The notes below the pieces were generated by a model. It did no database searches and was not told the origin of the DNA. It saw nothing but the letters and a program-made list of their open reading frames with translations. A stretch of DNA of 34,069 nt, taken from positions 1 to 34,069 of the IMG/VR virus record IMGVR_UViG_3300037420_001181. One strand, given 5' to 3'. Shown in pieces: positions 6,878 to 27,062 of this stretch. The position numbers were made by a program, and so were the translations under genes. The stretch comes from a virus (Duplodnaviria; Caudoviricetes). Each line of letters starts with the position of its first letter. Positions within the stretch are counted from its first letter, which is position 1.

Positions 6878-6882
6878 CAGCC

Positions 6883-10802: not shown

Positions 10803-10943
10803 CGGTTCTCCGTCATAATCGCACCAAACGAGAGATTCCTTGCCGTTCCAGCCCATTCGCCGGGCGGCGCTCACAGCGCGACATTGAATGCCGAGCGGCT
10901 CGAAAAGCTGCCGCTGTTTTCGTTTCGCCTGAACGATGAACAT
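10776..10943 (-). CDS. Antisense small protein (55 aa), candidate leaderless moron
   Basis: MFIVQAKRKQRQLFEPLGIQCRAVSAARRMGWNGKESLVWCDYDGEPLGGFVPAR fills the portal-scaffold gap; TGcTATGGA-6nt-ATG. Confidence 0.5.
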   Translation of the reverse strand: MFIVQAKRKQRQLFEPLGIQCRAVSAARRMGWNGKESLVWCDYDGEPLGGFVPAR

Positions 10944-10962
10944 TACGCTTCCATAGCATAGG

Positions 10963-11054
10963 GGCCGCCTCCCTCAAAGGGCGCATCGCCGCTGCCGCGT
11001 AGGCAGCAACTGGCCGCCGCAGTTCGGGCGCATCGTCACTGCTACGTCAAGCAG
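10963..11054 (+). repeat. Tandem ~45-nt structured repeat in the scaffold leader
   Basis: Two units GGCCGCC-N-GGGCGCATCG(C/T)C(G/A)CTGC...GCAG at 10963-11007 and 11012-11054. Confidence 0.7.
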
Positions 11055-11064
11055 AGGGATAATC

Positions 11065-11817
11065 ATGGACAAGCTGGAGTTTTTGGAAGGCGCGGAAGCG
11101 CCGAACGAGGAAGTTGCGCCTGCGGCCCAGGAACCGGCAGCAGAGGAAAAGCCCGAACGTCCCCGCGGACCTGACGGCAAGTTCGCGCCCAAGGAGAAGG
11201 CTGAAGACGCTCCCGTAGCTCAGCCAGAACCAACACCGCAGGCTGAACCCGCACAGGAACAGCCGATGGTGCCTCTCGCGGCACTTCACGAGACCCGCGA
11301 CAAGGTACGAGACCTTGAAGCCCGTCTCGCGGCGATGCAGCCCAAGCAGCAACAGCCTCAACCGACAATCGGCCCGGCTCCCGACATGTTCGAGGACCCG
11401 GACGCCTACCAATCGTGGCAGCAGCAGCAGATCGTCAACGCGACCCTCAACCTCTCGGAAGAGATCACGAGGGAGAAGTACGGCGACGAGCTGGTGGATG
11501 CGGCGAAAGTGTGGGCCACCGAGCAATTCCAGACGCGTCCCGGCTTCGCCCAGGAAGTGCTGAGCCAGCGCAATCCCTACGGCTATGCCGTCAAGCAGTA
11601 CCAGAAGCACCAGTCGCTTTCCCAGCTGGGAGACGACCCGACAGAGATTCAAGCCTACCTCGCCTGGAAGCAGGCCCAGCAGGCTCAGCCGGCGGCACCC
11701 GCCGCCACACCTCCACCTCAGCGCCCTCCACAATCGATCGCTTCTGCTCCTTCAGCCGGAGGATTGCAGTCGCAGGCGGTCGGACCGGGGGTGGCGTTCG
11801 ATTCAATCATAAGGTAA
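11065..11817 (+). CDS. Head scaffolding protein
   Basis: Acidic P/A/Q/E-rich; RGPDGKFA and VPLAALHETRDK motifs; lies between portal and capsid. Confidence 0.88.
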   Translation: MDKLEFLEGAEAPNEEVAPAAQEPAAEEKPERPRGPDGKFAPKEKAEDAPVAQPEPTPQAEPAQEQPMVPLAALHETRDKVRDLEARLAAMQPKQQQPQPTIGPAPDMFEDPDAYQSWQQQQIVNATLNLSEEITREKYGDELVDAAKVWATEQFQTRPGFAQEVLSQRNPYGYAVKQYQKHQSLSQLGDDPTEIQAYLAWKQAQQAQPAAPAATPPPQRPPQSIASAPSAGGLQSQAVGPGVAFDSIIR

Positions 11818-11823
11818 TTCGAA

Positions 11824-12933
11824 ATGGCTGAAGTCACCCTCGCATCCGCTTCTGAAAAGCAGAAGTGGATCAGCGACTATTTCGCTGAATATGTCCGGCA
11901 GTCCGGTTTTTCCGGATACATGGGCCGGTCCAACAACTCGATCATCATTGCCAAGTACGAGCTTCAGGAAGAGGCCGGCAAGACGATCAACATCCCGCTC
12001 ATCACGCGCCTGAAGTCGGCGACCGGCGTTACCGGTTCCGGCGTTCTCGACGGCAACGAGGAAGAGCTCGGCAATTACAACTGCGCGATCTCGATCGACT
12101 GGCGCCGCAACGGCGTCCGCGTTCCGAAATCGACCAGCTTCAAGACCGAGATCGACCTTCTCAACGCCGCTCGTGACATGCTGCGGACGTGGGAAGCCGA
12201 GAAGATCCGCGACGACATCATCAAGGCGATGCTGGCCGTGGTCACGACCGGCGACACGACCGTCAACATGGCGGATTCATCGGCGACCAACCGCAACGCC
12301 TATGCCGCTGCAAACTCGGATCGTCTGCTCTTCGGCAACGCGATCTCGAACTACTCGGCGACGTGGGCCACGGCGATGGGCAACATCGATACGACCAACG
12401 ACAAGTGCAACGTCGCCCAGATGAGCCTGATGAAGCGCATTGCCAAGCTGGCGGACCCGCACATTCGGCCCTTCCGGTCGAAGGTCGGTCAGGAGTTCTT
12501 TGTCGCGTTCCACGGCTCCCGCACCTTCCGCGACCTGAAGGCGGACTCGACCATGACGCAGGCCAACCGCGATGCGCGGCCCCGCGACGTGGAAGAGAAC
12601 CCGATCTTCCAGGATGGCGACCTGATCTATGACGGCATCATCCACCGTGAAGTGCCGGAAATCGATACGGTCGCGGCCAATGGCGGCAATGCCTACACCC
12701 TGAACGGCGTGGGCGCATCGTCGGCGGATGTCCGCCCGGTGTTCCTCTGCGGCGCGCAGGCCGTGGGTATCGCCTGGGGCCAGGAGCCAACTCCGCGAAC
12801 CGACACGGCCAAGGACTATCAGTTCCGTCCAGGCGTCGCGATCGAGGAGCTTTTGGGCGTCAAGAAGCTGGCGTTCAACGGTCTCCAGCAGGGTATGGTC
12901 AGCGGCTTCTTCGCTGCGGCGGCCGACAGCTAA
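11824..12933 (+). CDS. Major capsid protein (DUF4043 / N4-gp56-like)
   Basis: 369 aa, strongly biased codons; GKTINIPLITRL, LDGNEE, NPIFQDG, FLCGAQAVGIAWG. Confidence 0.92.
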   Translation: MAEVTLASASEKQKWISDYFAEYVRQSGFSGYMGRSNNSIIIAKYELQEEAGKTINIPLITRLKSATGVTGSGVLDGNEEELGNYNCAISIDWRRNGVRVPKSTSFKTEIDLLNAARDMLRTWEAEKIRDDIIKAMLAVVTTGDTTVNMADSSATNRNAYAAANSDRLLFGNAISNYSATWATAMGNIDTTNDKCNVAQMSLMKRIAKLADPHIRPFRSKVGQEFFVAFHGSRTFRDLKADSTMTQANRDARPRDVEENPIFQDGDLIYDGIIHREVPEIDTVAANGGNAYTLNGVGASSADVRPVFLCGAQAVGIAWGQEPTPRTDTAKDYQFRPGVAIEELLGVKKLAFNGLQQGMVSGFFAAAADS

Positions 12934-12941
12934 GGAGATGA

Positions 12942-13064
12942 ATGATGCCTGAGATCGGCTCTGGCGATCCGAGCGACCCGCTGTTTCAGCAGGCTCTCGG
13001 CTTCACTCCCAAGGCGAAAGCTCCCGCAAAGCCCAAGGCGAAGCGGAAGCCCAAGCGGAAATAA
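12942..13064 (+). CDS. Small Lys/Pro-rich basic protein (40 aa)
   Basis: SD AAGGAG; MMPEIGSGDPSDPLFQQALGFTPKAKAPAKPKAKRKPKRK. Confidence 0.7.
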   Translation: MMPEIGSGDPSDPLFQQALGFTPKAKAPAKPKAKRKPKRK

Positions 13065-13073
13065 CCATCATCG

Positions 13074-13106
13074 AGTGAGCGGCCTCTTCGGGGGCCGTTC
13101 GCTTTT
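13074..13106 (+). terminator. Intrinsic terminator after the capsid genes
   Basis: AGTGAGCGGCCTC-TTCG-GGGGCCGTTCGCT stem followed by a T run. Confidence 0.8.
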
Positions 13107-13117
13107 GGAGATACGAA

Positions 13118-13555
13118 ATGGCGACTTACTCTTCCTCACAGGTGACGAACAGCATTCCGCTGTCGCACCACGGCCTTGGCAGCAACGTCAAGGTCGCATT
13201 TGCGGACATCAACTGCACTGCCGCGCCCTCGACTTCCGACACGATCAACTTCTTCGATCTGCCGGCAGGAGCGCGGGTTATCCTCGCCGTCCTCGAATCG
13301 GACGACATGGACACCAACGGCACCCCGACGCTCACTATCAACGTGGGCGATGCTGGCTCGGCGACGCGGTACTTCTCCGCTTCGACCGTGGGCCAGGCCG
13401 GAACCCTGTCAACGGCCATTGCCGTGGCCGGAGCCGGTTACTCGAACACGGCGAAAACCCGTGTGGTCGGCGTAGCGGGCAACAATGCCGCGACCGGCGC
13501 TGCCGGGCACCTCTACCTGACGATGTTCTACGTCATCGAGGGTGTGGCGTCCTAA
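13118..13555 (+). CDS. Virion structural protein (capsid decoration-like)
   Basis: SD GGAG; beta-rich; DTINFFDLPAGARV and TLTINVGD patterns typical of post-capsid proteins. Confidence 0.75.
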   Translation: MATYSSSQVTNSIPLSHHGLGSNVKVAFADINCTAAPSTSDTINFFDLPAGARVILAVLESDDMDTNGTPTLTINVGDAGSATRYFSASTVGQAGTLSTAIAVAGAGYSNTAKTRVVGVAGNNAATGAAGHLYLTMFYVIEGVAS

Positions 13556-13560
13556 TGATC

Positions 13561-13596
13561 GGCGGGGGCCTGTGAATGGCTCCCGCCCTTCCTTTC
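13561..13596 (+). terminator. Probable terminator hairpin
   Basis: GGCGGGGGCC-7nt-GGCTCCCGCC followed by CTTCCTTT. Confidence 0.55.
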
Positions 13597-13609
13597 GGGG
13601 AGGGTGTTG

Positions 13610-14188
13610 ATGGCAACATGCCTCGATGTAATCACCTATGCCATGCGCGCGCTTGCGCTGCTTGCCTCGGGAGAAACGCCGAGCTCGCAGGAAAGCGAGG
13701 ACGGGCTTGTCGCCCTCCAGTCCTTCTATGACGAGATTGTCATGTCCGGCATGTTCGGGCGGCTAGAGGACATCTATCTCACCGCTGACGATACTGCGGA
13801 AGAAGGAAAGCGCTACTTTCTCGCGGCCGGGATCACGCTAACCGAACCGACGATCATTCTCGCTGCCGACACGGACGACGGCGAAGACCGACAGCCAAGG
13901 GACCTTTCCCTTTACGAGAGCCTGACCGACACGGGAACGCTTTCCCGGCGCCTATATGATCGGACGGGCTGGGTCGATCTGCTGGATCTGAGCCTGACCG
14001 ACGTGGCTCCGCTGTCCGGCAGGGGCGCTATGGGCCTTGCTGCCGCCGTGGCCTGTTCCGGAGGCTTCTCGGACATGTTTGGGGCTGAACCTGGCCCTGC
14101 TCTTCTCGCTCGTTCTCAGCGGTTCCTGTCCAGCCTCTCGCACAAGCTCGGATCGACGCGTGACCGTCTCGCGGCGGAGTATATGTGA
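13610..14188 (+). CDS. Head-tail adaptor (P22 gp4-like)
   Basis: MATCLDVITYAMRALALLASGETPSSQESEDGLVALQ N-terminus; position after the head genes. Confidence 0.75.
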   Translation: MATCLDVITYAMRALALLASGETPSSQESEDGLVALQSFYDEIVMSGMFGRLEDIYLTADDTAEEGKRYFLAAGITLTEPTIILAADTDDGEDRQPRDLSLYESLTDTGTLSRRLYDRTGWVDLLDLSLTDVAPLSGRGAMGLAAAVACSGGFSDMFGAEPGPALLARSQRFLSSLSHKLGSTRDRLAAEYM

Positions 14189-15553
14189 GTGCCGTCCATT
14201 TCCTACGGCGCCAGCGCCTACAAACGAACCAACGGCAACCTCCCGCCGCTCACGCTCATCAACATGTTTCTGGAACAGGCCAAGACCTCCGAACAGAGCG
14301 TCTGCCTGCTCTCCCGCGAAGGGCTGGTTGAGTCCTCGGCGGTCGGATCAGGCCCGATCAACGGCATCTTCTCAAAGCAGGGCTGCTTCAGCGGCGACCT
14401 GTTCATTGTTTCCAACAACACGCTTTACCGGGAAACTACTTCGTTAGGGGCCATCACCGGTTCGGGACCGGTATCGATCGACGGTTCCGACAATGAGGTG
14501 GTCGTTACCAGAGGGGGCACAGCCTACAGCTACAACGGCACCACTCTGGCGGCGATCACATTCCCCGATTCCGCCGATGTGCGGGCGGTGTGCTTCATCA
14601 ACGGTCGGTTCGTGTTCGTTCGTGATGGTTCGGCCAAATTTTACTGGTCCGACATTCTCGACGGCCGGACAGTAGATGCGCTCAATTTCGCCACTGCGGA
14701 AAGGCAACCGGATCAACTATACGACGTGAAGGCGAGGGGAGATATCCTCTGGCTTCTCGGGCAATCGACAATCGAAGCCTGGAGCAATGACGGGTCGGAC
14801 GCGGATATACCCTTTTCGCGGATTGAGCAGGTGGTGTTCGATGTCGGGACGATCGACACGGGATGCACCTCCCTTGCCGACAACACCATTTTCACCATCG
14901 GCCACGATGGAGTTCTGTACCGCACCGGAGAGGTCCCGCAGCGGGTTTCGGATCATTCGATCGAGGAACGAATCCTCAGCTCGATTTCACAAAAACTGTT
15001 CACATTCAAATATCAGGGTCATGAATTTCTCGCTATAAGGCTAGACAATGAAACCCTGCTCTATGATTGCGCGACGCAGGAATTTTGTGAGTTTCAGTCC
15101 AGCCAGGGTAACTGGATCGTCCAATGCGCGGCAATGGTTGGCGATTTGGCCTATTTCGGCCACGCTTCAACTAATCAGGTGCTTTTGTTCGATGGCTGGG
15201 ACGATCTGGGAAGCGAATTAGAGCGCCGCTTCTCAGCCGCACAGCAGTTGGATGCTCCCACGGTCATCAACAACGCTCGCCTATGGTGCAATGCCGGGCA
15301 TACGGAGGTGCTGGGTTCAGATCCGCAGGTTGAGCTGCGTTATTCTCGGGATGCCGGAAACAGTTTCAGCAATTGGGATGGAGCGAGGCTGGGCGATACC
15401 GGCGAGTTCCGAACTGTTCCGACCTGGAGAAGGCTGGGCCAGTTCGATTTTCCCGGCCTGCTGATGGAGTTTCGAGTCACCGATCCGGTTCCGTTCCGGG
15501 TCAGTGCGGTGAAGGCCAACGAATTTACCGGCGGGCGGTCAAGGAATGGCTAA
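14189..15553 (+). CDS. Tail hub / packaged-DNA stabilisation protein (P22 gp10-like)
   Basis: 454 aa beta-rich; LNFATAERQPD, LRYSRDAGNSFS, WRRLGQF. Confidence 0.88.
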   Translation: MPSISYGASAYKRTNGNLPPLTLINMFLEQAKTSEQSVCLLSREGLVESSAVGSGPINGIFSKQGCFSGDLFIVSNNTLYRETTSLGAITGSGPVSIDGSDNEVVVTRGGTAYSYNGTTLAAITFPDSADVRAVCFINGRFVFVRDGSAKFYWSDILDGRTVDALNFATAERQPDQLYDVKARGDILWLLGQSTIEAWSNDGSDADIPFSRIEQVVFDVGTIDTGCTSLADNTIFTIGHDGVLYRTGEVPQRVSDHSIEERILSSISQKLFTFKYQGHEFLAIRLDNETLLYDCATQEFCEFQSSQGNWIVQCAAMVGDLAYFGHASTNQVLLFDGWDDLGSELERRFSAAQQLDAPTVINNARLWCNAGHTEVLGSDPQVELRYSRDAGNSFSNWDGARLGDTGEFRTVPTWRRLGQFDFPGLLMEFRVTDPVPFRVSAVKANEFTGGRSRNG

Positions 15554-16409
15554 GCTTCTCGACCGGCTGACGGGGCAGAACTCGTCGGGGGTCGCGTTCC
15601 GTAAGCTGTGGCAGAAGAATTGCGAGCTGATCGAGGCTCAGTTCGCGGATATCTTTCTTGCTCTCGCTTCGGTTTCCGAAGTCGCTCCGATCACCATTGA
15701 CGCGGATTATACCGGTGCCGTCAGTCCCGCCGATCAATTGCCCTACGAGGTCGCGATCAAGCGCTTCAATGGGGATACGGACGTTACCACGCTCACGGCT
15801 TGGTCACTGGTTGCCGACGCGGGGATTACGGCCTCGATCGGGGCATCAACCGGGGTCCTGTCGATCACCGCAGTCACAGCTTCGGGCACAATCACGGTTT
15901 CGAGCCTCTACAACGGGATCACCAAGACAAGACTGGTCCCAGTCACATTGACCATCGCAGCACCGCCTTCGACCGGTTCCGGCGGAGGTGGATCGACATC
16001 TTCCGACACAACGTTCAATTCGATTAGTTCGGCCACTCACGCAGCGATTTCTGACGAGCTCACGGTCACCGTAGGGTCATCGGGGACAGTAACGCTCAAC
16101 GCGGCCGGCCTGACCGTGAGGACCGCCAAGAACACCACCGGCACCTTCCCGGTGTACGGGATATGGAGATGGTGGAACGGTGCTTCATGGGCCGATGTCG
16201 GGACCGAGGTTCAGAGCAGCCCGGATTGCGTGCTCGATTACGATTCAGAGACCGGGATTTATTTCTTCAGCCCAACCGGAAGCCTGACGGTCAACACATC
16301 GAAAACCGGACTTGGGGTCGGTAGCAGCCAGAAGTTCCAGCTTTATGCCCGTAATTCGTCGGGAACGCGAACCATGACCTTCACCGGGACGGCTTCGGCG
16401 ATCCCGTGA
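15546..16409 (+). CDS. Tail needle/fibre-like protein (gp26 position) with C-terminal beta domains
   Basis: Helical N-terminus followed by S/T/G-rich beta domains; between the gp10-like and GNAT-like genes. Confidence 0.65.
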   Translation: MAKLLDRLTGQNSSGVAFRKLWQKNCELIEAQFADIFLALASVSEVAPITIDADYTGAVSPADQLPYEVAIKRFNGDTDVTTLTAWSLVADAGITASIGASTGVLSITAVTASGTITVSSLYNGITKTRLVPVTLTIAAPPSTGSGGGGSTSSDTTFNSISSATHAAISDELTVTVGSSGTVTLNAAGLTVRTAKNTTGTFPVYGIWRWWNGASWADVGTEVQSSPDCVLDYDSETGIYFFSPTGSLTVNTSKTGLGVGSSQKFQLYARNSSGTRTMTFTGTASAIP

Positions 16410-16822
16410 GGCTGGCGACCGCTGAAGATATCGAGGCGGTCAACAGGATCATCAACGACCCTTCGGTTCGGCCCACGATCGGCGGCGAAGGCTATCTCGA
16501 CAGCTCGGCGCTCATCACTGATCGGAGAAACAGGATCATCTTCGATGAGCGGGGCGGGGCCTGTTTTGCCTGGCGGGGTCCGGGGATTTTCGAGGGCCAC
16601 AGCTTCTTTCTCGTGAGGGGCAGGGAGGCCTTGTCAGCAGGGCGAGAGGCTATTTCCCTGCTCGATTACCGGATGATCTGGGGCCTGACCCCTACGAAGA
16701 ACGGGAACGCCGATTGGTTCAGGTCTGTGCGGTGGTTCAACCGCCAGCTGGGCTTCAAATCTCATGGAATGATCGACACGCCAGACCAGGGGCGCTGCGA
16801 ACTCTTTGTGTTGGAGAATTAG
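16406..16822 (+). CDS. GNAT-fold virion assembly protein (P22 gp14/DUF2824-like)
   Basis: FEGHSFFLVRGR and FNRQLGFKSHG GNAT-like motifs; conserved position before the ejection genes. Confidence 0.7.
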   Translation: MRLATAEDIEAVNRIINDPSVRPTIGGEGYLDSSALITDRRNRIIFDERGGACFAWRGPGIFEGHSFFLVRGREALSAGREAISLLDYRMIWGLTPTKNGNADWFRSVRWFNRQLGFKSHGMIDTPDQGRCELFVLEN

Positions 16823-16824
16823 GG

Positions 16825-17877
16825 ATGGGCCTCGACACGGTTATTGGCGGCATCACTGGGGGCCTTGGGGGTCTGTTTGGTGGAGCTGGCTCTGACGCCA
16901 CCAAAAAGGCAGCAAACAAGGCCAACGACGCCCAGCAGGCAGCGACACAGGCGCAGCTTCAGCTTGGCCGTGAATCTCTTGCGCTCAACAAAGACATCTA
17001 CAACTCGAATTACGGCATCCTCAGCCCGTTCGTTTCGCGGGGGAATGTCGCAGGGGATTCGATCAACGCCCTCCTAGGCCTTCCCTCAGCTCCTGCGATG
17101 ACCTCACCACTGGCAACCAGCGGAACGGGCGGAACAAATGGCTCGTCATCAGGCGGTTACACCGGTCCCAATCTCTCGCAGATCGTGGCGATGAAAGGCG
17201 ATCATACCAAGGGGAACATGACTTCTGCGGTCAACCAGTTCCTCTCCTACTATCAGGCGCACCCCAACGAAGATCCGGGGATTACCCCCGCTCTCATCGC
17301 CGGACTGAAGGGCGATCATATCCCCGGCGACCAGGAGGCGATACAGGGACTCTACAATACGTGGCAGTCACATCCGGCGCAGACGACGAACCAGGGCAGC
17401 GCCCCCGGCCCTGCGCCGGTTGGCGGCTCGACGACCCCAGCGACAACGCCGATCACCGCACAGAACGCATTCAACAACTTCGCCAATTCGGCGGGGATGC
17501 AGTTCCAGCTTCAACAGGGCGAGAACGCGATCAACAATGGCTATGCGGCCAGGGGCCAGCTTCAGTCCGGCGCCGCGCTGAAGGGCCTTCAGGATTACGG
17601 CCAGAAAACCGCTCTGAACAACTACTTCCTGCCCTATTTGGGGCTTCTCGGAGGTCAGCAGGCGACGGGCGTTGGAGCGGCTTCGTCGATCGCCGGAGTG
17701 GGAGCGAATTTCGGCAATACGGCAGCGAACATCAATGCCGGGATGGGACAGAACATTCAATCTGGCGCGAACGCTGCTTCGAATGCTGCGCTCCTAAAGG
17801 GTCAGGCCAACGCCAACATGTGGTCCGGAATAGCCTCCGGCATCGGCAATTTCGCCTCAAGCTTTGGAGGCTTCTAG
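16825..17877 (+). CDS. DNA ejection/internal virion protein (gp7-like)
   Basis: G/A/N/Q-rich; QFQLQQGENAINNGYAARGQLQSGAALKGLQDYGQ motif. Confidence 0.8.
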   Translation: MGLDTVIGGITGGLGGLFGGAGSDATKKAANKANDAQQAATQAQLQLGRESLALNKDIYNSNYGILSPFVSRGNVAGDSINALLGLPSAPAMTSPLATSGTGGTNGSSSGGYTGPNLSQIVAMKGDHTKGNMTSAVNQFLSYYQAHPNEDPGITPALIAGLKGDHIPGDQEAIQGLYNTWQSHPAQTTNQGSAPGPAPVGGSTTPATTPITAQNAFNNFANSAGMQFQLQQGENAINNGYAARGQLQSGAALKGLQDYGQKTALNNYFLPYLGLLGGQQATGVGAASSIAGVGANFGNTAANINAGMGQNIQSGANAASNAALLKGQANANMWSGIASGIGNFASSFGGF

Positions 17878-18567
17878 ATGACCGATTCGAGTGGCGTCAA
17901 TTGGGGTCTCGGTGTCCCCCAACAGAACCCGGCCAATGCCTTCATGCAGGCATATCAGCAAGGCACCCAGCAGCGCCGCCAGAACCAGTCGCGGCAGGCA
18001 ATGGCGGCGCTGGTCCAGAATCCCAACGATCCGAAGGCCCTTGCTGCACTAGCCCAAGCTGATCCGCAGGCGGCGATGCAATTCCGCCAGCAGCAATTGG
18101 AACAGACCAAAGCTCAGCTCGCTCAGCATCAGGAATCGATCCTGAAGGGCGCGGAGATCGTGCGTCAGCTCAATCCCAAGGACCAGCGGGGCTGGGATCA
18201 GGCACGAGCTCTGGCCGCTCAAGCGGGCATCGATATTTCCCAGGTGCCGCCAGACTTCAACCCGCAATATGTGCAGGGGCTTACGGCTCTCGCCGATGCG
18301 TTCAAGCCGCAGGCGTCGGACAACACGCATTTCATCACTCCGCAGCCCGGTGGCGGCGCTTATGCCTACGATCCCCGCACTGGCGGCGTCACGACAATCA
18401 TTCAGCCGAACTATGGTCAGTCTGTTCCTCAGGGCGGCCTACCCCACGTCTCCGATCAGGCCAGCTACGACGCCGTTCCTCCCGGAAGCCAGTACATGGC
18501 GCCTGACGGGCATGTCCGCATCAAGCAGGGAGGGCAGGCGGCAACCCCGCCTGCCACGTTTCCCTGA
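17878..18567 (+). CDS. DNA ejection/internal virion protein (second)
   Basis: Q/A-rich 229 aa; [15 protein letters not shown] motif; ends TTT CCC TGA. Confidence 0.8.
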
Positions 18568-18571
18568 TCCG

Positions 18572-18823
18572 ATGAAGGCACCGGGACGCATGACATCCGG
18601 ACGCCGAACGGTCGAAGGAAACCGCTTGGTCGGCGGGGTTCAGAATAGCCATCATCTGAGCGGAGATGCCGCTGACTATGTCGGCACGAGCATGAACGCG
18701 CTGATGCAGTATTTTGGGCCGAACGCGCGCTATCTCAACGAGGGCGATCACATCCACGTGACGCTCCCTGGGTATGGGCACATGCCTTTCTTTGGCCGTC
18801 GCGGAACGATTGGAGCGCATTAG
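18572..18823 (+). CDS. Peptidase M15-type (Zn D-Ala-D-Ala/LAS) domain, probably expressed as a +1 frameshift extension of the upstream gene
   Basis: [28 protein letters not shown]...DHIHV gives the SxH, AxD and HxH Zn ligands; no SD before ATG 18572. Confidence 0.8.
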
Positions 18824-21708
18824 TGGCGAATCCCTGGGACAATGATCCGGTCGTGCAGCAGGGACCGGTCCTCGGGCCTCCGCGTCTGCCGTCGCCGCAA
18901 ACGCAAGCTCAGGCCACGCAGGATCAGCTTCAGGTCCAGCACCTTCAGCAGCAGATTGGTAGCCAGCCGCTCCAGAACGAGAATACGGCTGTAAATATCA
19001 AGCAGGGCCAAGCAAGCATCCAGAACCAGCAGTTCAATCAGAACCAGGGATTGCGGCAGGAGTTCAACAATCTCCCCGAGGTCAAGAACTACAGCGCCGC
19101 GATCCAGTCGCTCGGAACTGCCCTGAAGGCTCCAGATACGCCGCAGGGCGACCTTGCGGTGATCTATGCCTACGCCAAGGCCGCGGACCCCGGATCCGTC
19201 GTCCGCGAAGGTGAGATGGACATGGCAACGGCCACCGCCTCCATTCCAGAGAAATACCGGGCCGAAGTCGGAAAGCTGACCGAAGGCAAGCGTCTTCCCC
19301 CTGAGGTTCGCACCGGCCTTATCGAGACCATGCGCCAATCCGTGGGAGGAATGCGGCAGGTCTATGACCAGCAGCGCGAGCGTTATTCGGCTCTCGCCCA
19401 GCAGAATGGCTTCGATCCCCAGCAGATCGTCGGCGAGCCTCTTTACCACGCCTATGAGCCTTCCGAAGAACAATATATCCGCGCTCATGGCGGGACGCCG
19501 CGGATCAACGGTGTGCCGATTGACCAACCAGCTCCAGTAGGCCCGCAAACGAACGCCCCGACGCAATCCGTGGGCCAGTTCGGCGACGCTCCGGGCGAAG
19601 CACCACTTCCGCCTCATGCGGAGGATTTCCGCAACGGCCTCTATTCGGCCATGCGTAACAGGCAGATCAACTCACCCGCCGACATGAAGGCATGGGTCCA
19701 GCAGTTCAACCAGCAGAACGGGACACAATATCAGCCCCAGCTCACCGCCAAGGACACGCTGAGAGCCATTAACGCGGCGAGGAAGGGGCAAGCGTTCAAT
19801 GTCGAGCTGCCCAAGTACACGCCGGAGATTTCCGACATGCGTGGCGGCGGCGGTTTTGGCGAAAAGGCGGATGCGGTCATTCGCGGCGCCGCCGATACGG
19901 CTTCCTTAGGGCTTGCCGATAAAGTCGCTGCTCTTGGCGATACCGTAACGCGCGGCGGAACGTTCGATGAGAATCTGGCCCGTCAATTCGCCATTTCCGA
20001 TTACGACACGCAAAACCATTTTCCGTCTCGTTTGGGTGGGCAGATTGCTGGTGGCTTCGCCGTTCCGGTCGGGGAGATGGTGTCTATCCCGCAGGCGGTG
20101 GGCAAGAGTGCGGCAGTCGGCGCCGCCTATGGGGCAGGTTCGTCTCGTTCGCTTGCCGATGTCCCCAGGAACGCATTTCTGGGAGGAGTTGCGGGCGGTG
20201 CGGTCGGGGGAGTGATTGGGGGCGTTCCGCGCGCCGTGGGAGCATTGCGCCGGTCACCTGGGGAAGTTCCCCCGCTGGTCGATCCGCAGACTGGCCAGCT
20301 CAATCAACCTCTGGAAGCGATGACCCCCGGCCAACGGGTGGTCAAAGCCGAGGAATATGGCGTCAACCTTCCCGCCGACGCCGCAGGGGGTCGAACCGCT
20401 GCTGTCATCGGCAAGGGGCTCGATATCATGCCCGGATCGGCCGGCGTGATGGAGGACGCGCGTAGGGCTACCGAAAGCCAAGTTGCCGCTGCCTCAGATG
20501 TCGTCGCTTCGCGGTTCGGCAATGCCCGCACGATGAACGAGGCCGGCGCAGAGCTTCAGAGAGGAGCAAATGAGCGGATCGAACGGGGAAAGACGGTTAT
20601 TGGCAAAGCGTATGACGCAATTCCGATTGCCGATCAGGCGCCTGCATCCACGAGCAACAGCGTTTCCACGCTTCAAAACCTGACGAGCCGGTTTCAGTCG
20701 AATCCGGATCTCGCCGCGACGCTGAAAGATCCCAAGCTGTCCGGCTATCTCGATGCTCTGCAAAAAGGCGGCCTCAGCTGGAAAGACCTCAAGGACTTTC
20801 GTTCGATCATCGGCGAAAAGATCGGCGAGATGCGGTTCGGTGAAAGCTCGAGCACATCGGATCTTCGGGCACTGTATGCGGGTCTCTCGGAGGACATGCA
20901 GACGACCGCCGCGCAGATGGGACCGCGCGCGTCCGCAGCGTTCAACCGCGCCAACAATATCAATCGCGAAAATGAGCAACTAATCCAAGGCGCTTTGACC
21001 CGCATCCTCGGCAAAGATGGACAGATGAGCCCGGAGAAAGCCGCTGCCGCAGTCCAGGCGATGACCAAGGGCGGCAAATCGACCGGCGACCTCAAGACTC
21101 TAGCGCAAATTCGCTCGGCGACGACGAAAAGTGGCGCGTGGAACGAGATTGCTGCAACCATGATTAGGCTTGGCGGTCAGCCGGTCAATTCGGCAGGCAG
21201 GGATTTCAACCCGCAAACCTTCGTCAATTGGTACGCCGATATGTCCGAACCGGCCCGCAGAATGCTGTTCGGCAAATCCGAGCTCAGAGAGGCGCTGGAC
21301 GGCTTTGTCGCTGTCAACCAGCGGCTTCAAAAGGTCAACGCGCTCCGGAATACGTCGAACACCGCTGGCAACCTTACCGCAGCAGGAACAGTCGGAACAA
21401 TGGCCGCATCTCTCGGCAGTCCGTTGCTGGGCGCTAAATTGCTTGGCGTTATGGCCGGGAACTACGGCATGGCGAAAGCCTGGACCAACCCTGCCTTCGT
21501 CCGGTTGATGACCGGCTACTCAAAAGCCGTCGCATCGGGCAACCAGAATGCGGTTCGCTCGCAGATCGGCCGCATCGGCAAACTCGCCGCGACCAATCCG
21601 GATCTTCGAGAGCCTTTGGAAGCACTTCTGAAGCGTGTCGCCAATGACAATGCGGTTCCGCAGGTCGCGGCGTCATCCAATCCCGATACCGGCAACCAGA
21701 ACCAGTAG
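18823..21708 (+). CDS. Large DNA ejection protein (gp16-like)
   Basis: 961 aa, helical A/G/Q-rich; MANPWDNDPVV start; DPGSVVREGE motif. Confidence 0.82.
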   Translation: MANPWDNDPVVQQGPVLGPPRLPSPQTQAQATQDQLQVQHLQQQIGSQPLQNENTAVNIKQGQASIQNQQFNQNQGLRQEFNNLPEVKNYSAAIQSLGTALKAPDTPQGDLAVIYAYAKAADPGSVVREGEMDMATATASIPEKYRAEVGKLTEGKRLPPEVRTGLIETMRQSVGGMRQVYDQQRERYSALAQQNGFDPQQIVGEPLYHAYEPSEEQYIRAHGGTPRINGVPIDQPAPVGPQTNAPTQSVGQFGDAPGEAPLPPHAEDFRNGLYSAMRNRQINSPADMKAWVQQFNQQNGTQYQPQLTAKDTLRAINAARKGQAFNVELPKYTPEISDMRGGGGFGEKADAVIRGAADTASLGLADKVAALGDTVTRGGTFDENLARQFAISDYDTQNHFPSRLGGQIAGGFAVPVGEMVSIPQAVGKSAAVGAAYGAGSSRSLADVPRNAFLGGVAGGAVGGVIGGVPRAVGALRRSPGEVPPLVDPQTGQLNQPLEAMTPGQRVVKAEEYGVNLPADAAGGRTAAVIGKGLDIMPGSAGVMEDARRATESQVAAASDVVASRFGNARTMNEAGAELQRGANERIERGKTVIGKAYDAIPIADQAPASTSNSVSTLQNLTSRFQSNPDLAATLKDPKLSGYLDALQKGGLSWKDLKDFRSIIGEKIGEMRFGESSSTSDLRALYAGLSEDMQTTAAQMGPRASAAFNRANNINRENEQLIQGALTRILGKDGQMSPEKAAAAVQAMTKGGKSTGDLKTLAQIRSATTKSGAWNEIAATMIRLGGQPVNSAGRDFNPQTFVNWYADMSEPARRMLFGKSELREALDGFVAVNQRLQKVNALRNTSNTAGNLTAAGTVGTMAASLGSPLLGAKLLGVMAGNYGMAKAWTNPAFVRLMTGYSKAVASGNQNAVRSQIGRIGKLAATNPDLREPLEALLKRVANDNAVPQVAASSNPDTGNQNQ

Positions 21709-21792
21709 AGCCGACACCGAATAGACGCGCCAGCGGCGCGGCGTAACCCAACCTGCCGCGATCAACAGAACTGCCACCTGCCAGACCTTCAC
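21673..21792 (-). CDS. Antisense 39-aa membrane peptide, candidate leaderless moron
   Basis: VKVWQVAVLLIAAGWVTPRRWRVYSVSALLVLVAGIGIG has two hydrophobic segments; TGcTATTCC-6nt-GTG. Confidence 0.5.
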   Translation of the reverse strand: MKVWQVAVLLIAAGWVTPRRWRVYSVSALLVLVAGIGIG

Positions 21793-21815
21793 CGGTCGGG
21801 AATAGCACAGCCACG

Positions 21816-21838
21816 GGCCGCCGCGAGCGGCCTTTTTC
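21816..21838 (+). terminator. Intrinsic terminator
   Basis: GGCCGC-CGCGA-GCGGCC-TTTTT. Confidence 0.75.
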
Positions 21839-21855
21839 ATGTCCGGAGCAAATGA

Positions 21856-24075
21856 ATGTCCGCAGCCCAGCTTTATCTTCCAGCCAACCGGGCATTCAAC
21901 TCGAACGGGCTGCCCGTGCCCGGAGCCGTGATGAAGCTCTATACGACGGGCACTAACACTCGCCAATCATTCTACCTGGATGCGGCGCTTACCCAACCTG
22001 TGGCGGAAATCGTCGCCAATGCCGCCGGCCGGTTCGATCCTCCGTACCAGAACAATGCAACGCCGTTCAGGCTGAGGATCGAGGATTCGCTGGGTGCTGA
22101 GCTCGACGATATCGATCCTTATTATTTCGGCACTATCGCTGGAGCGGTCCTCGGCACCGAGGGTGCCGTCGCTCCAACGCGCACCGATATCGCTGGCCTC
22201 AGCGGCGTTGCCGGCGCTTCGGCCATTCTCACGGAATCTGGCCGCGAGGGCAATTTCGTCTGGTCCTCTGCCAATCTCTCCACTTTCGTTTCCGCCGATC
22301 CCCTGCAGGGCATCTACGTCGCTCCAGCATCGGACACGACGGGAGCATCTGGTGCATGGGTCAGGAAGTTTTCCGGGCCGGTCGATCCGACATGGTTTGG
22401 GGTACTTCCGGCCAACAGCGGAGCGTCGAACGATACCGCCATTCTGGCGATGTTCGCGACCCTTCGGCTTCGCGCCGCGAATACCGGGACCTATGCTCTT
22501 GGCGTTGAGCCGATCCGGTGGCCTGCGGGAACCTATAGCTTCTCCTCAACCATCGACCTGACTGACGGCAATTGGATCATCGAAGGCGCAGGACGCTCGA
22601 CCGACAACACGACTGGAACGGTCTTTGTCTTCCCGACTGGTGTCACCGGCATCCGCGTGCAGCGCTACAATACCACTGGAGCGACCTCAACCCGCACCGC
22701 CGCCAAAGGCGCGGATTATTCGATCATCCGCAATCTTGCCCTCAAGGGCGCCTATGCGGGAACTGAAGCGGAAGTTTATGGCATTCAGCTAAGAGCCCGC
22801 GCGATCATCGAGAACAATGTGATCGGTGACTTCCAAGGCGACGGGATCTACATCGCGGCCACTGCCGGAGGAACGCCGGAAGGCAACGCCAATTGCTTCA
22901 TCCTCAGAAGCAACAGCGTCCTCCGCTGCCGCGATGGCATCAATATCGGCGACAATTCTGCCACTTCCGATGTCAACGCCGGTCTTACGGAAAACAACGA
23001 TCTGTCCGCCAACCGCCGCTGGGGTATCGCCGACCGCAGCTTCCTCGGCAACACCCATGTCGGCAATCATACCTCGACCAATGGTCTTTCGACCTCGGGA
23101 AGCCCTTCGGCCTGCGTCAGCTATTCGGGCAACCGCTATGGCGTAATTTCCGGACAGGAAGTGGGAGCTTCGACCAACGCGCCTTCAGGAACGACCGCCG
23201 ACAATACCTGGTGGTACTACATCAGCGCGGGCGGAGTTCATGCCGTTTTCCCGGCGTGGGTCAGCGGGACGACCTATCGTGCTGGCGGTTCCTATTTCAC
23301 CAACAACAGCAATGCCCGCAATCTATTCAGCGGCTGCTATGCGGAGAGCGATCAAGGATTCCCGCAACTCGCATCGCCAACCCTTGCAATAGGTGGAGCG
23401 CTCAGCAAGGTCGTCGGTACGGGTGGATGGCTGTCGCCAATTGCTTCCCCGAGCGGAGCGCTGGTCGGCAATCGCGGCATAGGCGTCCAGACGGTCGCGG
23501 GCTCCAACACCACAACCGTTCTTGTCGGCGAGGCCGGGGTTCCCACCACCATCTTGCAGGTCACGGACACGACGGAGGCTGCGGCAACTTGGAGACTCAA
23601 GCTCTCCGGTCACAACCTGATCCTCGATTACGCCAACGGTGGATCTGCGCGACCGTTCAACATCACAGGACCGATTAGCACCGACCAATTCGGCACCGGA
23701 GCCGCAGTTCCTTATGCGTTCCATCCTATCAATCTCATGGTCGGGGATTACGCGGGGACGATTGCCAACGCGCGGCGGATCGGGATGGAGGCCTCGGTGC
23801 CTGCCGCCAACGCTCATGCGCAAGGCGAGATCGTCTTCAACCGTACCCCAGCGCAGAGTGGAGCGTCATCCAATGCGGGCTGGAAATGCCGCACCGCTGG
23901 CACGCCGGGCACATGGGACAAGTTCGGTGGTTGCGCTGCCGCTCCGACGGCGACCTACGCGGCGCCGAGTGGCGGAACGACGGTCGATACCGAAGGGCGC
24001 GCATCGCTGGCCCAGCTCGCCGCCGACCTCGCCGACCTGAAAACCAAGCTTCAAACAGCAGGGCTGACCCTATGA
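21856..24075 (+). CDS. Tailspike (right-handed beta-helix, putative depolymerase)
   Basis: N-terminal head-binding-like NGLPVPGAVMKLYTTGT; WPAGTY and N/G-rich beta-helix rungs (IIENNVIGDFQGDGIYI); C-terminal PSGGTTVDTEGR helical cap. Confidence 0.88.
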   Translation: MSAAQLYLPANRAFNSNGLPVPGAVMKLYTTGTNTRQSFYLDAALTQPVAEIVANAAGRFDPPYQNNATPFRLRIEDSLGAELDDIDPYYFGTIAGAVLGTEGAVAPTRTDIAGLSGVAGASAILTESGREGNFVWSSANLSTFVSADPLQGIYVAPASDTTGASGAWVRKFSGPVDPTWFGVLPANSGASNDTAILAMFATLRLRAANTGTYALGVEPIRWPAGTYSFSSTIDLTDGNWIIEGAGRSTDNTTGTVFVFPTGVTGIRVQRYNTTGATSTRTAAKGADYSIIRNLALKGAYAGTEAEVYGIQLRARAIIENNVIGDFQGDGIYIAATAGGTPEGNANCFILRSNSVLRCRDGINIGDNSATSDVNAGLTENNDLSANRRWGIADRSFLGNTHVGNHTSTNGLSTSGSPSACVSYSGNRYGVISGQEVGASTNAPSGTTADNTWWYYISAGGVHAVFPAWVSGTTYRAGGSYFTNNSNARNLFSGCYAESDQGFPQLASPTLAIGGALSKVVGTGGWLSPIASPSGALVGNRGIGVQTVAGSNTTTVLVGEAGVPTTILQVTDTTEAAATWRLKLSGHNLILDYANGGSARPFNITGPISTDQFGTGAAVPYAFHPINLMVGDYAGTIANARRIGMEASVPAANAHAQGEIVFNRTPAQSGASSNAGWKCRTAGTPGTWDKFGGCAAAPTATYAAPSGGTTVDTEGRASLAQLAADLADLKTKLQTAGLTL

Positions 24076-24752
24076 CCGACGTAGGCCAGATGCGGCAATT
24101 TCCGCCCGCCGTATCGCAGCCGGTCGAGGACGGCCTTCATACCTCGATACCGGCTGAACAGGGTCGGTTCGCAAACGGCGGTCTCAAACCCAAAGCGCTC
24201 GATATATGGAGCAAGGGTTGCGGCCGTCCACGAGCGGACATGCTGCATCTGGTGGAACACGCAGCCGCAATCCGGGCAGATGCGCTTGTGGGCGTCGAGG
24301 TTCTCATCGTTGGGCGTTGTGACGACCAGATGACCGCCTGGCTTCAACAGCCGCCTAGCCTCGCTCAGCGTTTCGGCGAGTTTCTCGTCATCCAGATGCT
24401 CGACGACTTCGACGATGAACACCGTATCGAAGGCGGCGTCCGGGAAAGACGCTGCGCCGACTTTCGCCCAAAGGAAGTGCGGATCGTTCGCAAAGCGTTT
24501 GACCACGATGTCAACGCTCCCGCTCGACTGATCCGCGCCGGCGACCTGGTGCTTGGCAATCAAGTGACCGATCAGGTCTCCATGCCCGCATCCCAGATCA
24601 AGGACGCGACCAAGGCGGATGCGGCGCTCCGCGAACCGCACGATGCTGTGACCGACCAGCTTAGTGAAGTAGGTATCGTCGAGCGCCCTATTGGAACTGT
24701 AATAGTTCCAGAAGCGGGCAATCTTTTCCGGTGTCCATTCGACCTGATGCAT
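24051..24752 (-). CDS. Class I SAM-dependent methyltransferase (moron)
   Basis: VLDLGCGHG, FDTVFIVEVVEHL, RLLKPGGHLVVTTPN, plus a CPDC...H motif. Confidence 0.9.
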   Translation of the reverse strand: MHQVEWTPEKIARFWNYYSSNRALDDTYFTKLVGHSIVRFAERRIRLGRVLDLGCGHGDLIGHLIAKHQVAGADQSSGSVDIVVKRFANDPHFLWAKVGAASFPDAAFDTVFIVEVVEHLDDEKLAETLSEARRLLKPGGHLVVTTPNDENLDAHKRICPDCGCVFHQMQHVRSWTAATLAPYIERFGFETAVCEPTLFSRYRGMKAVLDRLRYGGRKLPHLAYVGHRVSPAV

Positions 24753-24755
24753 CGG

Positions 24756-24977
24756 CTAGCGGTGGGTCTCGGCTATAGCTCCATAGATCGACTTCGGCTC
24801 GTCGAACATAGTGGTTCTTCCGTCAATCGTGATCGATCGGACATTCCGGATGTGCTGGTTCGGCCAACTCCGCTCGCGCCAGCTCATGAAAAGCCAAATG
24901 GCTCCGAACGCCGCCATTGGCAGAGCAAGCAAAATACCAAGCAGGGCCAGCGTCGTCATCAGCGCGTGAAGCTGCAT
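24756..24977 (-). CDS. Small single-pass membrane protein co-transcribed with the methyltransferase
   Basis: Hydrophobic LMTTLALLGILLALPMAAFGAIWLF; 3 nt upstream of the MTase start; TGgTAGAAG-6nt-ATG. Confidence 0.7.
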   Translation of the reverse strand: MQLHALMTTLALLGILLALPMAAFGAIWLFMSWRERSWPNQHIRNVRSITIDGRTTMFDEPKSIYGAIAETHR

Positions 24978-25039
24978 CCCCGCCTTCTACCAAATCACGA
25001 AAGCAAATCCACCCGCCCTTTTGCCGGGAGTACCGCGTA

Positions 25040-26457: not shown

Positions 26458-27062
26458 GCGGGCTTGCTGGCCTTGGGCTTCTCGCCAAGCTCAGCGGAGC
26501 GAAGGCGACACTGGCTAAGGTGCCGCCGAAAGTCTGGTACGGCCTCGCCATTGTGGCCGCGCTCGTCGCCAGCATTCTCGTTCATCAGCATTACGCGCAC
26601 AAGGCTCTGAAAGCCGCCGACGCTGCCGGATATGCCCGCGCCGCCAAGGAGGATGCGGATGCGCTGGTCGCGCTGAGAAAGAGAGCAGAGGTCGCAGAAG
26701 CCAATGCGAAAGCCATCGCACAGGACATAAGGAACCGCAACGATGAAACGAACCGCGCTATTGCTGCTGATGCTGCCTCTCTCAAGCTGCGCGGGCCAGG
26801 TGCGGCCAGTTGCCGACGCATCAGTGATCCCGCCCTTCCCGCCACCCGCGGTCAACCTGTCGCGGCCGATCATCAACGAGCCGATGCTGCCCCAGGTCAA
26901 GTGCTTGCAACAGACGGGCAGCCCGACCTCGCCGCAGTGCCATGGCAATGGCTCGTAGGCCGCGCTGAGCAATGCGATCTCGACCGCGCTGAATCGCTGA
27001 GCTGGCGAGACTGGTACGCTCGTCAAAGCGCCGAGTGGGCCAAGCTGAAGGGCGGTAAATGA
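26454..27062 (+). CDS. Inner-membrane spanin (Rz-like)
   Basis: N-terminal TM helix, Ala-rich coiled coil, RAEQCD near the C-terminus; contains an embedded lipoprotein ORF. Confidence 0.8.
26743..26958 (+). CDS. Outer-membrane spanin lipoprotein (Rz1-like), fully embedded in Rz in the +1 frame
   Basis: [16 protein letters not shown] lipobox; Pro-rich mature part; AGGA SD upstream. Confidence 0.82.
   Translation: MKRTALLLLMLPLSSCAGQVRPVADASVIPPFPPPAVNLSRPIINEPMLPQVKCLQQTGSPTSPQCHGNGS

What the first reader, a model, noticed from the sequence alone, without database searches (positions are those of the whole stretch)
18527..18823. Probable programmed +1 frameshift with a hairpin-bridged SD that adds an M15 peptidase to an ejection protein
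Seen: the 229-aa ejection gene ends ACG TTT CCC TGA (18556-18567). The +1 frame continues TTC CCT GAT CCG ATG into a complete M15 Zn-peptidase domain whose own ATG (18572) lacks an SD. Both TTT and CCC can re-pair in +1 (TTC, CCT). Upstream is GGAGG (18529-18533), then a perfect 9-bp hairpin GGCAGGCGG-caacc-CCGCCTGCC (18533-18555), then only 3 nt before TTT. Established: CCC-stop +1 shifts occur in phage structural genes (SPP1 tail tube, Listeria phage capsid/tail genes), and prfB +1 shifting uses an SD 3 nt upstream of the shift codon. Inference: folding of the hairpin behind the ribosome could place the SD at prfB-like spacing. That would give short (229 aa) and long (~314 aa, peptidoglycan-cutting) forms of an ejected protein at a set ratio. 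I do not know of this SD-hairpin-slip arrangement being described for ejection genes.
Basis: partly seen in the sequence, partly recalled or inferred. Interest (0 to 1): 0.8.

Follow-up and report, generated by a model that had tools for sequence, protein, structure and literature searches.

The report
Portable +1 frameshift arms ejection protein
A 34-base signal at the end of a phage gene for a likely DNA-injection protein (GGAGG, a small hairpin, three bases, then TTT-C) recurs in many related phage sequences and likely makes some ribosomes slip one base forward, so that part of the protein would gain a predicted cell-wall-cutting domain; this has not been tested at the bench.

Summary
GGAGG, a covarying 7-9 bp hairpin, 3 nt and an in-frame TTT-C/T recur in 166 distinct cassettes from phage contigs, in 7 of 401 genomes of the Sphingopyxis family, and in the cultured phage Pam1. 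In junctions chosen by protein similarity alone, the Phe codon is TTT in 34 of 34 (background 18-40%). The +1 frame carries swappable domains (M15-like, SLT-like, NNPG-type); 59 of 158 lack any start codon before their first conserved motif. Eight loci are reversed: the enzyme is in frame and the slip would truncate. Best reading: a programmed +1 ribosomal frameshift giving 229-aa and 314-aa forms of a P22-like ejection protein. The hairpin-bridged SD geometry fits but is untested. Against: Pam1 virion mass spectrometry lists the short-form gene but not the downstream ORF, and no RNA or ribosome data exist. Nine literature searches did not find the signal; earlier agents of this scan reported the same cassette in other genomes.

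The parts
17878..18567 (+). Frame-0 gene, 229 aa, probable P22-like ejection protein (short form); helical N-terminal two thirds, small beta modules, then the signal-encoded tail
   Evidence: homolog of Pam1 gp14 (25.6% over 133 aa, E 1.6e-6), which is marked as found in virions by mass spectrometry
18529..18533 (+). Internal SD-like GGAGG (family consensus (A)GGAGG(U)), read in frame as Gly-Gly
   Evidence: complementary 16S 3' end found in 4 of 5 cassette-bearing host genomes
18533..18555 (+). Hairpin, 9 bp + 5-nt loop; inner 7 pairs covary in the family, outer 2 overlap the SD
18556..18558 (+). 3-nt spacer (would be the E-site codon when TTT is in the P site)
18559..18562 (+). Predicted shift site TTT-C (tRNA-Phe re-pairing UUU to UUC)
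   Evidence: TTT in 34 of 34 protein-selected junctions, next base C 33, T 1
18565..18567 (+). Frame-0 stop TGA ending the short form
18560..18823 (+). +1 frame, 87 codons: compact M15 (Zn peptidase / Hedgehog-like fold) domain; predicted C-terminal extension of the 314-aa long form
   Evidence: Pfam PF08291 above cut-off; AlphaFold pLDDT 92; best fold match 1lbu Zn DD-peptidase
18823..21708 (+). Next gene, 961 aa, probable large ejection protein; its GTG overlaps the stop of the +1 ORF by one base and has its own GGAG at 18812-18815
   Evidence: homolog of Pam1 gp16
16714..17877 (+). Preceding gene, DNA-ejection family (context)
   Evidence: phrog_598 'DNA ejection', E 7.6e-11; homolog of Pam1 gp12

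Best explanation
The end of the 229-aa gene likely holds a programmed +1 ribosomal frameshift signal that would let a fraction of ribosomes slip from UUU to the overlapping UUC and add a predicted M15 peptidoglycan peptidase, giving 229-aa and 314-aa forms of a likely ejection protein. Shown by sequence comparison: the four-part signal, its phase, its stem covariation, the +1 coding frame, the domain swaps and the reversed polarity. Inferred mechanism: the translating ribosome's anti-SD pairs with (A)GGAGG(U); the 18-23 nt that follow refold into a hairpin on the exit side once the ribosome has passed; with UUU in the P site the stem ends at the E-site codon, so SD duplex and hairpin together sit at prfB-like distance and push peptidyl-tRNA-Phe forward one base. 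No stop or particular A-site codon is required. Inferred purpose: only some copies of an ejected subunit carry a wall-cutting domain, enough to open peptidoglycan locally during DNA injection. My odds: frameshift real about 0.88; both SD and hairpin needed about 0.75; the specific bridged-SD geometry about 0.5.
For: Split is conserved: all 78 proteins are 167-267 aa and 77 of 78 end GG-x(7-9)-F plus 0-7 residues. Unconditioned test on 94 protein-selected loci: 37 distinct split junctions, 35 in +1; 34 show GG-x(7-9)-F in the last 25 codons, with TTT 34 of 34, next base C 33 / T 1, GGA first 33 of 34; background GGA 12-13% of Gly, TTT 18% to 40% of Phe. Pattern-only scans with a free gap: in-phase gaps in 109 of 122 and 67 of 92 distinct hits, against 12 of 27 in the bacterial-genome control. 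Stem: in 112 distinct gap-25 cores the four inner pairs fixed by no pattern, or by one only, pair in 102-112 of 112, shuffle means 57-82; hairpin stronger than synonymous recodings in 35 of 35 cores, p<=0.05 in 23. SD extends: A at -1 in 76 of 166 against 34.7 expected. Domain swaps: M15-like 110, SLT-like 38, NNPG 8, other 2 of 158 (Pfam). No ATG/GTG/TTG before the first conserved motif in 59 of 158, 47 of them also without an SD-led upstream start. In Pam1 the annotated downstream ORF starts after the His and Asp ligands. In-frame fusions exist (P0087, P0090, P0093; L038, L042 with decayed signal). Reversed polarity in 8 loci, +1 stop within 4 codons in 8 of 8 against 20% background. Precedent: UUU_Y is +1 prone in bacteria and the +1 SD spacing is 3 nt (PMC5009743 passages); a synthetic upstream hairpin gives about 60% of SD-driven +1 shifting in 70S lysate (PMC6321510 passages).
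Against: No RNA, ribosome-profiling, reporter or peptide evidence. In Pam1 virion mass spectrometry gp14 is marked found but gp15, the annotated half of the +1 ORF, is not (PMC9382816 Table S2), so the long form may be rare or not packaged. In this M15 subfamily an ATG just before the TSG motif is kept in 38 of 42 loci, and the window has weak SD-like bases before ATG 18590, so a free peptidase is not excluded. The spacer codons are G/C-rich (AAC, GGC, ACC), unlike the weak E-site codon recalled for prfB. The two outer stem pairs are G-C/G-U and U-G against an invariant SD, with no (p 1.0) or weak (p 0.045) covariation. The synthetic-hairpin effect needed absence of RF2 at a stop codon. Sequences are related, so counts overstate independence, and the 166-cassette pool was selected on the motif. 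The homolog in phage Pan3 lacks the cassette altogether.
Confidence: 0.85

Rival explanations
1. The frameshift is real but the hairpin and the SD act separately: the hairpin alone pushes the ribosome forward, and GGAGG only pauses it earlier or competes with the outer stem pairs, with no bridged SD duplex at the moment of slipping. Same products, different mechanics.
For: An upstream hairpin alone stimulates +1 shifting in 70S lysate. The outer pairs G-C/G-U and U-G overlap the SD's last two bases, so SD pairing and full stem are partly exclusive. The review says an SD duplex lasts only 5-7 nt of translation.
Against: GGAGG stays directly against the stem base whatever the stem length (gaps 22, 25, 28), and the extra A at -1 is enriched; a mere pause site need not be fixed there.
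Confidence: 0.35
2. CCC-stop shift as in Listeria and SPP1 structural genes: the ribosome stalls at UGA with CCC in the P site and tRNA-Pro slips to CCU.
For: The window reads TTT CCC TGA; Listeria phages use CCC_UGA; the peptide product would be identical here.
Against: Only 20 of 158 cassettes have CCC-stop; CGC (45), CAA (28), CCG (10) and others follow TTT in the pool of 166, while TTT-Y is invariant.
Confidence: 0.05
3. Two separate genes: the M15 ORF is started independently or by re-initiation after the upstream stop, with the hairpin bringing GGAGG near a start codon.
For: ATG 18572 lies 4 nt after the stop; ATG before the TSG motif is kept in 38 of 42 loci of this subfamily.
Against: Even with the hairpin folded the SD is 16 nt from ATG 18572; that ATG is often replaced (ACC, TTC, CTT, CTA); 59 of 158 +1 ORFs have no start codon before the first motif; linkers of 10-20 codons separate the signal from the domain in L005-L008, L015, L033, L035; it does not explain invariant in-frame TTT-Y or reversed polarity.
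Confidence: 0.06
4. Hairpin-stimulated transcriptional slippage, as in the Roseiflexus IS element, deletes one base from some transcripts.
For: A GC-rich hairpin sits just 5' of a T/C run, and that system loses one C.
Against: The run is T3 plus a variable base string, not T5C5; TTT and GGAGG are always in the ribosome's frame, which RNA polymerase does not see; the SD has no role in that system.
Confidence: 0.03
5. Assembly error or broken gene.
For: In-frame relatives exist; single cases such as L013 could be one-base errors.
Against: Independent contigs agree; the same split is in 35 distinct junctions, in a cultured phage and in seven bacterial genomes.
Confidence: 0.01

Closest known systems
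prfB (release factor 2) +1 programmed frameshift
   Same: +1 P-site re-pairing of a single tRNA, with an SD-like element 5' of the shift site; effective 3-nt spacing if the hairpin folds (PMC5009743 passages)
   Different: SD is 22-28 nt upstream with a conserved hairpin between; shift codon UUU-C rather than CUU-U; no stop in the A site (4 of 158); not autoregulatory
Bacterial UUU_Y +1 shifting (Yersinia YopN-TyeA) and influenza PA-X UCC_UUU_CGU
   Same: Same shift tetramer, UUU followed by a pyrimidine
   Different: The passages read describe no SD-hairpin stimulator (for PA-X no stimulatory signals are evident); here the 5' codon varies
Synthetic upstream (E-site juxtaposed) hairpin stimulators, Huang, Cho and Chang 2018 (PMC6321510)
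   Same: A hairpin that refolds behind the ribosome next to the E-site codon stimulates +1 shifting in 70S lysate
   Different: Engineered, at CUUUGA without RF2, hairpin replaces the SD; here natural, and SD and hairpin occur together in series
Frameshift extensions of phage virion proteins (T7/T3 gene 10, Listeria PSA/A118/A500 capsid and tail)
   Same: Short and long forms of one virion protein from one gene; direction and even use of the shift vary between relatives
   Different: Those extend capsid or tail proteins, often with Ig-like domains, at CCC-stop or -1 sites; here an ejection-module protein gains a muralytic domain (SPP1 case recalled, not found)
Pseudanabaena phage Pam1 gp14/gp15
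   Same: Same gene order, homologous ejection gene, same signal (GGAGG 11173, TTT-T 11203), +1 M15-like ORF of 103 codons
   Different: Annotated as two genes with a truncated 49-aa gp15; 'frameshift' occurs 0 times in the genome paper's main text

Membership tests
prfB-type +1 frameshift | Internal SD 3 nt 5' of the shift codon | tested here: inconclusive
   Literal distance 25 nt (22-28 in family); 3-5 nt only if the hairpin is folded
prfB-type +1 frameshift | [quoted passage not shown] | tested here: not met
   Window has CCC after TTT; 4 of 158 have a stop there
prfB-type +1 frameshift | CUU_U (rarely UUU_U) shift site | tested here: not met
   UUU_C 161, UUU_U 5 of 166
CCC-stop +1 shifts of Listeria/SPP1 structural genes | Conserved CCC directly before the stop | tested here: not met
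   Present in the window, but 20 of 158 in the family
UUU_Y +1 shift sites | In-frame UUU followed by a pyrimidine at the frame switch | tested here: met
   34 of 34 protein-selected junctions
Programmed ribosomal frameshift (general) | Trans-frame product demonstrated | not testable with these tools
   No RNA holder listed; no peptide data; Pam1 gp15 not marked in virion MS
Hairpin-stimulated transcriptional slippage (Roseiflexus IS type) | T5C5-like heteropolymeric run after the hairpin | tested here: not met
   Only T3 plus variable bases; strict codon phase
Peptidase M15 (PF08291) | Profile match above curated cut-off | tested here: met
   31.1 bits against 23.2, partial profile coverage 45-79 of 108
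Peptidase M15 (PF08291) | Arg, H-x6-D and H-x-H Zn/catalytic residues (motif recalled) | tested here: met
   Thr, Ser, Arg, His, Asp invariant in 47 aligned ORFs; H-x-H present in the window
Peptidase M15 (PF08291) | Zn DD-peptidase / Hedgehog fold | tested here: inconclusive
   Top hit in both searches is 1lbu (Foldseek prob 0.99, E 0.11, TM 0.55; VIA Z 5.7, rmsd 3.1, 70 aligned), followed by Hedgehog, Ply500, LysB4, VanXY; scores are below the strict bars
Peptidase M15 (PF08291) | Peptidoglycan cleavage | not testable with these tools
   No assay
P22-like ejection proteins | Position in the ejection module and presence in the virion | tested here: met
   Between a phrog_598 DNA-ejection gene and a 961-aa gene; homolog Pam1 gp14 marked MS+; Pan3 homolog annotated 'ejection protein'
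P22-like ejection proteins | Sequence or fold match to a characterised ejection protein | tested here: inconclusive
   No Pfam or PHROG hit; no PDB match at E<=0.001; BFVD hits are uncharacterised phage proteins
Rfam Clostridiales-2 (RF02937) | Score above gathering threshold | tested here: not met
   28.9 against 58.6 bits; true members are multicopy repeats

The most novel reading that the evidence does not exclude
A natural, portable class of +1 recoding signal in which the anti-SD grips an SD across a hairpin that folds inside the mRNA exit path, forcing a stop-independent UUU slip at a fixed ratio. Phages bolt it onto unrelated ejection proteins, swap the enzyme behind it, and flip its polarity (slip adds or slip removes the enzyme) to tune how many ejected subunits carry a wall-cutting domain.
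Probability: 0.5. Interest if true: 0.88.

Novelty: new variant of a known kind. Interest (0 to 1): 0.77.

Why it matters
If true it adds a new natural stimulator architecture to bacterial +1 recoding, where the PRFect paper says no general forward motif is known, and gives the first natural case I could find of an upstream hairpin working with an internal SD. It makes a structural question testable: can the anti-SD stay paired while a hairpin forms next to the E site? It also shows how podophages may set the number of muralytic domains on ejected proteins, and it means many phage annotations hold truncated or missing genes (Pam1 gp15). A 34-base, stop-independent ratio switch would be a useful expression tool. 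Pam1 is cultured, so the test is cheap.

Tried and rejected
Assembly error: rejected. CCC-stop mechanism: rejected as general. Rfam: only sub-threshold hits. The Clostridiales-2 consensus has similar geometry, so I searched 151 Clostridia genomes (9 with matches, up to 28 copies per genome); my patterns recovered only 4 of 20 fetched loci, 1 of 4 has TTT-Y after the hairpin and none showed a long-ORF-end arrangement, so a link is unsupported, not excluded. The 25 loci were fetched but not analysed. Ruminococcus and other bacterial pattern hits are chance (25 of 27 with hairpin weaker than -11 kcal/mol). Weak tblastn hits to F116-like Pseudomonas phages (E 0.04) were not pursued beyond the annotation. 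No RNA holder listed. Fold of the upstream protein: no PDB match; ESM Atlas hits under 0.9. Metagenome scan gave only 3 loci. Pam5 (5000-25000), Pan3, DSL-LC05, VvAW1 and MW202496 stretches carry no in-gene cassette. No terminator-like site at the hairpin. The Pam1 structure paper is not held. No complex prediction was run. Literature searches without a description of this signal; subscription papers and bioRxiv supplements are not covered.

Full report
Observation. The window is a 34,069-base virus record with a P22-like head and tail module that resembles the cultured podophage Pam1: terminase 72%, capsid 51%, portal 51% identical, same gene order. The 229-aa ORF ends ACG TTT CCC TGA; GGAGG (18529-18533) is followed by a perfect 9-bp hairpin, 3 nt and TTT-C; the +1 frame from 18560 runs 87 codons and matches Peptidase_M15_3 above its cut-off. 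The predicted trans-frame product is 314 aa. Contigs of two runs cover the junction with no difference or gap (one may be the source sample).

The split is conserved. All 78 proteins found with the 229-aa query are 167-267 aa (lengths 125-401 were searched, so 314-aa fusions could have appeared), and 77 of 78 end in GG-x(7-9)-F plus 0-7 residues. To avoid selecting on the motif I took 94 loci found by protein similarity only and looked for a long ORF ending over an out-of-frame enzyme ORF: 37 distinct junctions, 35 in +1. In 34 the GG-x(7-9)-F peptide lies in the last 25 codons; its Phe codon is TTT in 34 of 34, the next base is C in 33 and T in 1, and the first Gly is GGA in 33 (the 34th is an offset in a Gly run that also holds GGAGG). 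The 35th (L015) has the signal slightly further upstream. The two junctions with the other offset are unrelated. Background use in the upstream ORFs is GGA 12-13% of Gly and TTT 18% or 40% of Phe, depending on the set. These loci are related, so the counts are not independent events.

The hairpin is under selection. In 28 distinct protein-selected cores with a 25-nt gap, nine stem pairs form in 22-28 of 28 with swapped pair types, and slid controls are lower overall though single slid positions reach 22-25 of 28. The hairpin is stronger than the mean synonymous recoding in 35 of 35 cores, p<=0.05 in 23. In 112 distinct gap-25 cores of the pooled set the four innermost pairs form in 108, 112, 107 and 102 cases against shuffle means of 75, 74, 82 and 57 (the shuffle ignores relatedness). 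The two outer pairs involve the SD's last G and the following U and show little or no covariation, so the honest anatomy is (A)GGAGG(U), a 7-bp covarying core with two optional outer pairs, and a 3-5 nt spacer. A at -1 is seen 76 times against 34.7 expected from synonymous use, which favours a true SD role; the matching 16S end is in 4 of 5 host genomes checked.

Pattern-only scans. In-phase gaps (22, 25, 28) made up 109 of 122 and 67 of 92 distinct hits; chance gives 3 of 7, and the bacterial-genome control gave 12 of 27, with only 2 strong hairpins, both true cassettes. Most in-phase hits close an ORF of about 170-390 codons and open a +1 ORF of about 80-190 codons.

Portability. The pooled, motif-selected set holds 166 distinct cassettes. 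Of 158 in which the slip extends the protein, the +1 frame holds M15-like 110, SLT-like 38, NNPG-type 8 and an unknown GNIDL-type domain 2, classed by motif. Pfam on 112 of these ORFs confirmed M15_3 for the window's subfamily and SLT for most of the SLT group, but gave little or nothing for two M15-like subfamilies, which rest on alignment and weak PHROG endolysin hits. The N-terminal proteins fall into nine BLAST clusters and only 12 of 92 match the window's family profile. Seven of 401 genomes drawn from the family of Sphingopyxis bauzanensis carry the cassette, which points to sphingomonad hosts for at least part of the group. The homolog in phage Pan3 has no cassette and no enzyme ORF, so it is optional.

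Why not two genes. 59 of 158 +1 ORFs have no ATG, GTG or TTG before their first conserved motif, and 47 of those also lack an SD-led start upstream. The ATG at 18572 is often replaced. In Pam1 the annotated gp15 begins after the His and Asp ligands. In-frame fusions to M15 exist among distant homologs, and L038 and L042 look like cassettes that lost one base and decayed. Against this, the ATG just before the TSG motif is kept in 38 of 42 loci of the window's subfamily, so some free peptidase cannot be excluded.

Two polarities. In 8 cassettes (L013, L024, L026, L039, L186, L259, L317, L318) the enzyme is in frame, the hairpin is as strong (mean -14.2 against -14.5 kcal/mol), and the +1 frame stops within 1-4 codons in 8 of 8, against 20% for off-frames inside the enzyme ORFs. 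They span four domain types. L013 alone could be a one-base error; the pairs L024/L026 and L259/L317 are distinct sequences with the same layout. The conserved outcome is therefore a mix of short and long forms.

Where the slip is. After TTT come CGC 45, CCC 41, CAA 28, CCG 10 and others; TTT CCC TGA is 20 of 158 and a stop directly after Phe is 4 of 158, though frame 0 stops within four codons in 137. The bases before TTT vary, so no -2 re-pairing is shared. The only common re-pairing is tRNA-Phe from UUU to UUC or UUU.

Mechanism (inferred). The anti-SD pairs with the SD, the next 18-23 nt refold behind the ribosome, and with UUU in the P site the stem abuts the E-site codon, placing the duplex at about prfB spacing and pushing the tRNA forward. 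Established pieces: 3-nt SD spacing for +1 shifts and the shiftiness of UUU_Y in bacteria (PMC5009743, passages); an upstream hairpin giving about 60% of SD-driven +1 shifting in 70S lysate, but only without RF2 at a stop codon (PMC6321510, abstract and passages); UUU among the most shift-prone P-site codons in vitro (bioRxiv 10.1101/2025.10.02.679949, passages). Whether SD and hairpin act together or in turn is open. Transcriptional slippage needs a longer run and would not respect codon phase.

Function (inferred). The gene sits between a DNA-ejection-family gene and a 961-aa gene; its Pam1 homolog gp14 is marked as found in virions (PMC9382816, passages and Table S2 of the supplement). The model of the upstream protein is helical with no PDB match. 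The +1 domain folds confidently (pLDDT 92) and its best matches are Zn DD-peptidase, Hedgehog and phage endolysin domains, at modest scores. The long form would carry a wall-cutting domain on a fraction of ejected subunits. Evidence against: gp15 is not marked in the Pam1 MS table; the 49-aa entry offers few peptides, so a minor long form could be missed, but the result does not support packaging.

Novelty. Nine searches of the held library found no description of this signal; the PRFect paper says no general forward-shift motif is known (PMC10885494, passages). Cho et al. 2013 (PMC3639245) was seen as a listing only. Rfam has no family for it. Six earlier notes of this scan describe the same cassette in other genomes; they are not independent evidence, and one supplied the Pam1 lead, which I checked. 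Verdict: very likely a real programmed +1 frameshift, a new variant of SD-stimulated recoding, interest 0.77.

Noticed in passing
L420:11173-11515 (Pam1): Pam1 gp15 is annotated from an internal Met after the first two predicted Zn ligands; the full 103-codon +1 ORF has the cassette in front. Predicted forms 269 and 367 aa.
   Followed up: yes
window 7347-24075 against L420: The structural module is Pam1-like (terminase 72%), yet cassette-bearing prophages were found in genomes of the Sphingopyxis family while Pam1's listed host is a cyanobacterium. Either the lineage spans phyla or a host assignment deserves a second look.
   Followed up: no
window 18821-18825: The +1 ORF's stop overlaps the next gene's start; in 84 of 87 loci the next gene starts within -11 to +4 of that stop. 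The slip could also feed ribosomes to the large ejection gene by coupling.
   Followed up: partly
window 18526-18567: In this window the stem can extend so that bases before the SD pair with the CCC-TGA region, hiding SD and stop in the resting mRNA. Conservation of this extension was not tested.
   Followed up: no
window 18440-18528 and homologs P0004-P0080: The 25-35 residues just before the signal are one of about five interchangeable mini-modules in otherwise close homologs.
   Followed up: no
L024, L026, L266, L287, L354; P0093, P0098: An unidentified domain of about 90 aa (GNIDL/GNLPL start) lies behind the signal, in either polarity, in some cases followed by an M15 domain.
   Followed up: no
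L038:2946-2980, L042:2929-2960: In-frame fusions whose signal is one base shorter with a weakened hairpin: likely decayed cassettes.
   Followed up: partly
window 24051-24752 (-): 233-aa reverse-strand ORF between tail spike and lysis genes with a class I methyltransferase-like glycine motif seen by eye; possible moron.
   Followed up: no
window 27059-29650 (+): 863-aa ORF after the lysis genes with a short tail-fibre PHROG match; possible second receptor-binding or glycan-active protein.
   Followed up: no
G429, G450 (L375-L394): Rfam Clostridiales-2, listed as an sRNA, occurs in 21 and at least 28 copies per genome, more like a dispersed repeat.
   Followed up: partly
P0025: The one homolog without the C-terminal pattern appears to read the signal region in another frame, probably an upstream indel.
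   Followed up: no
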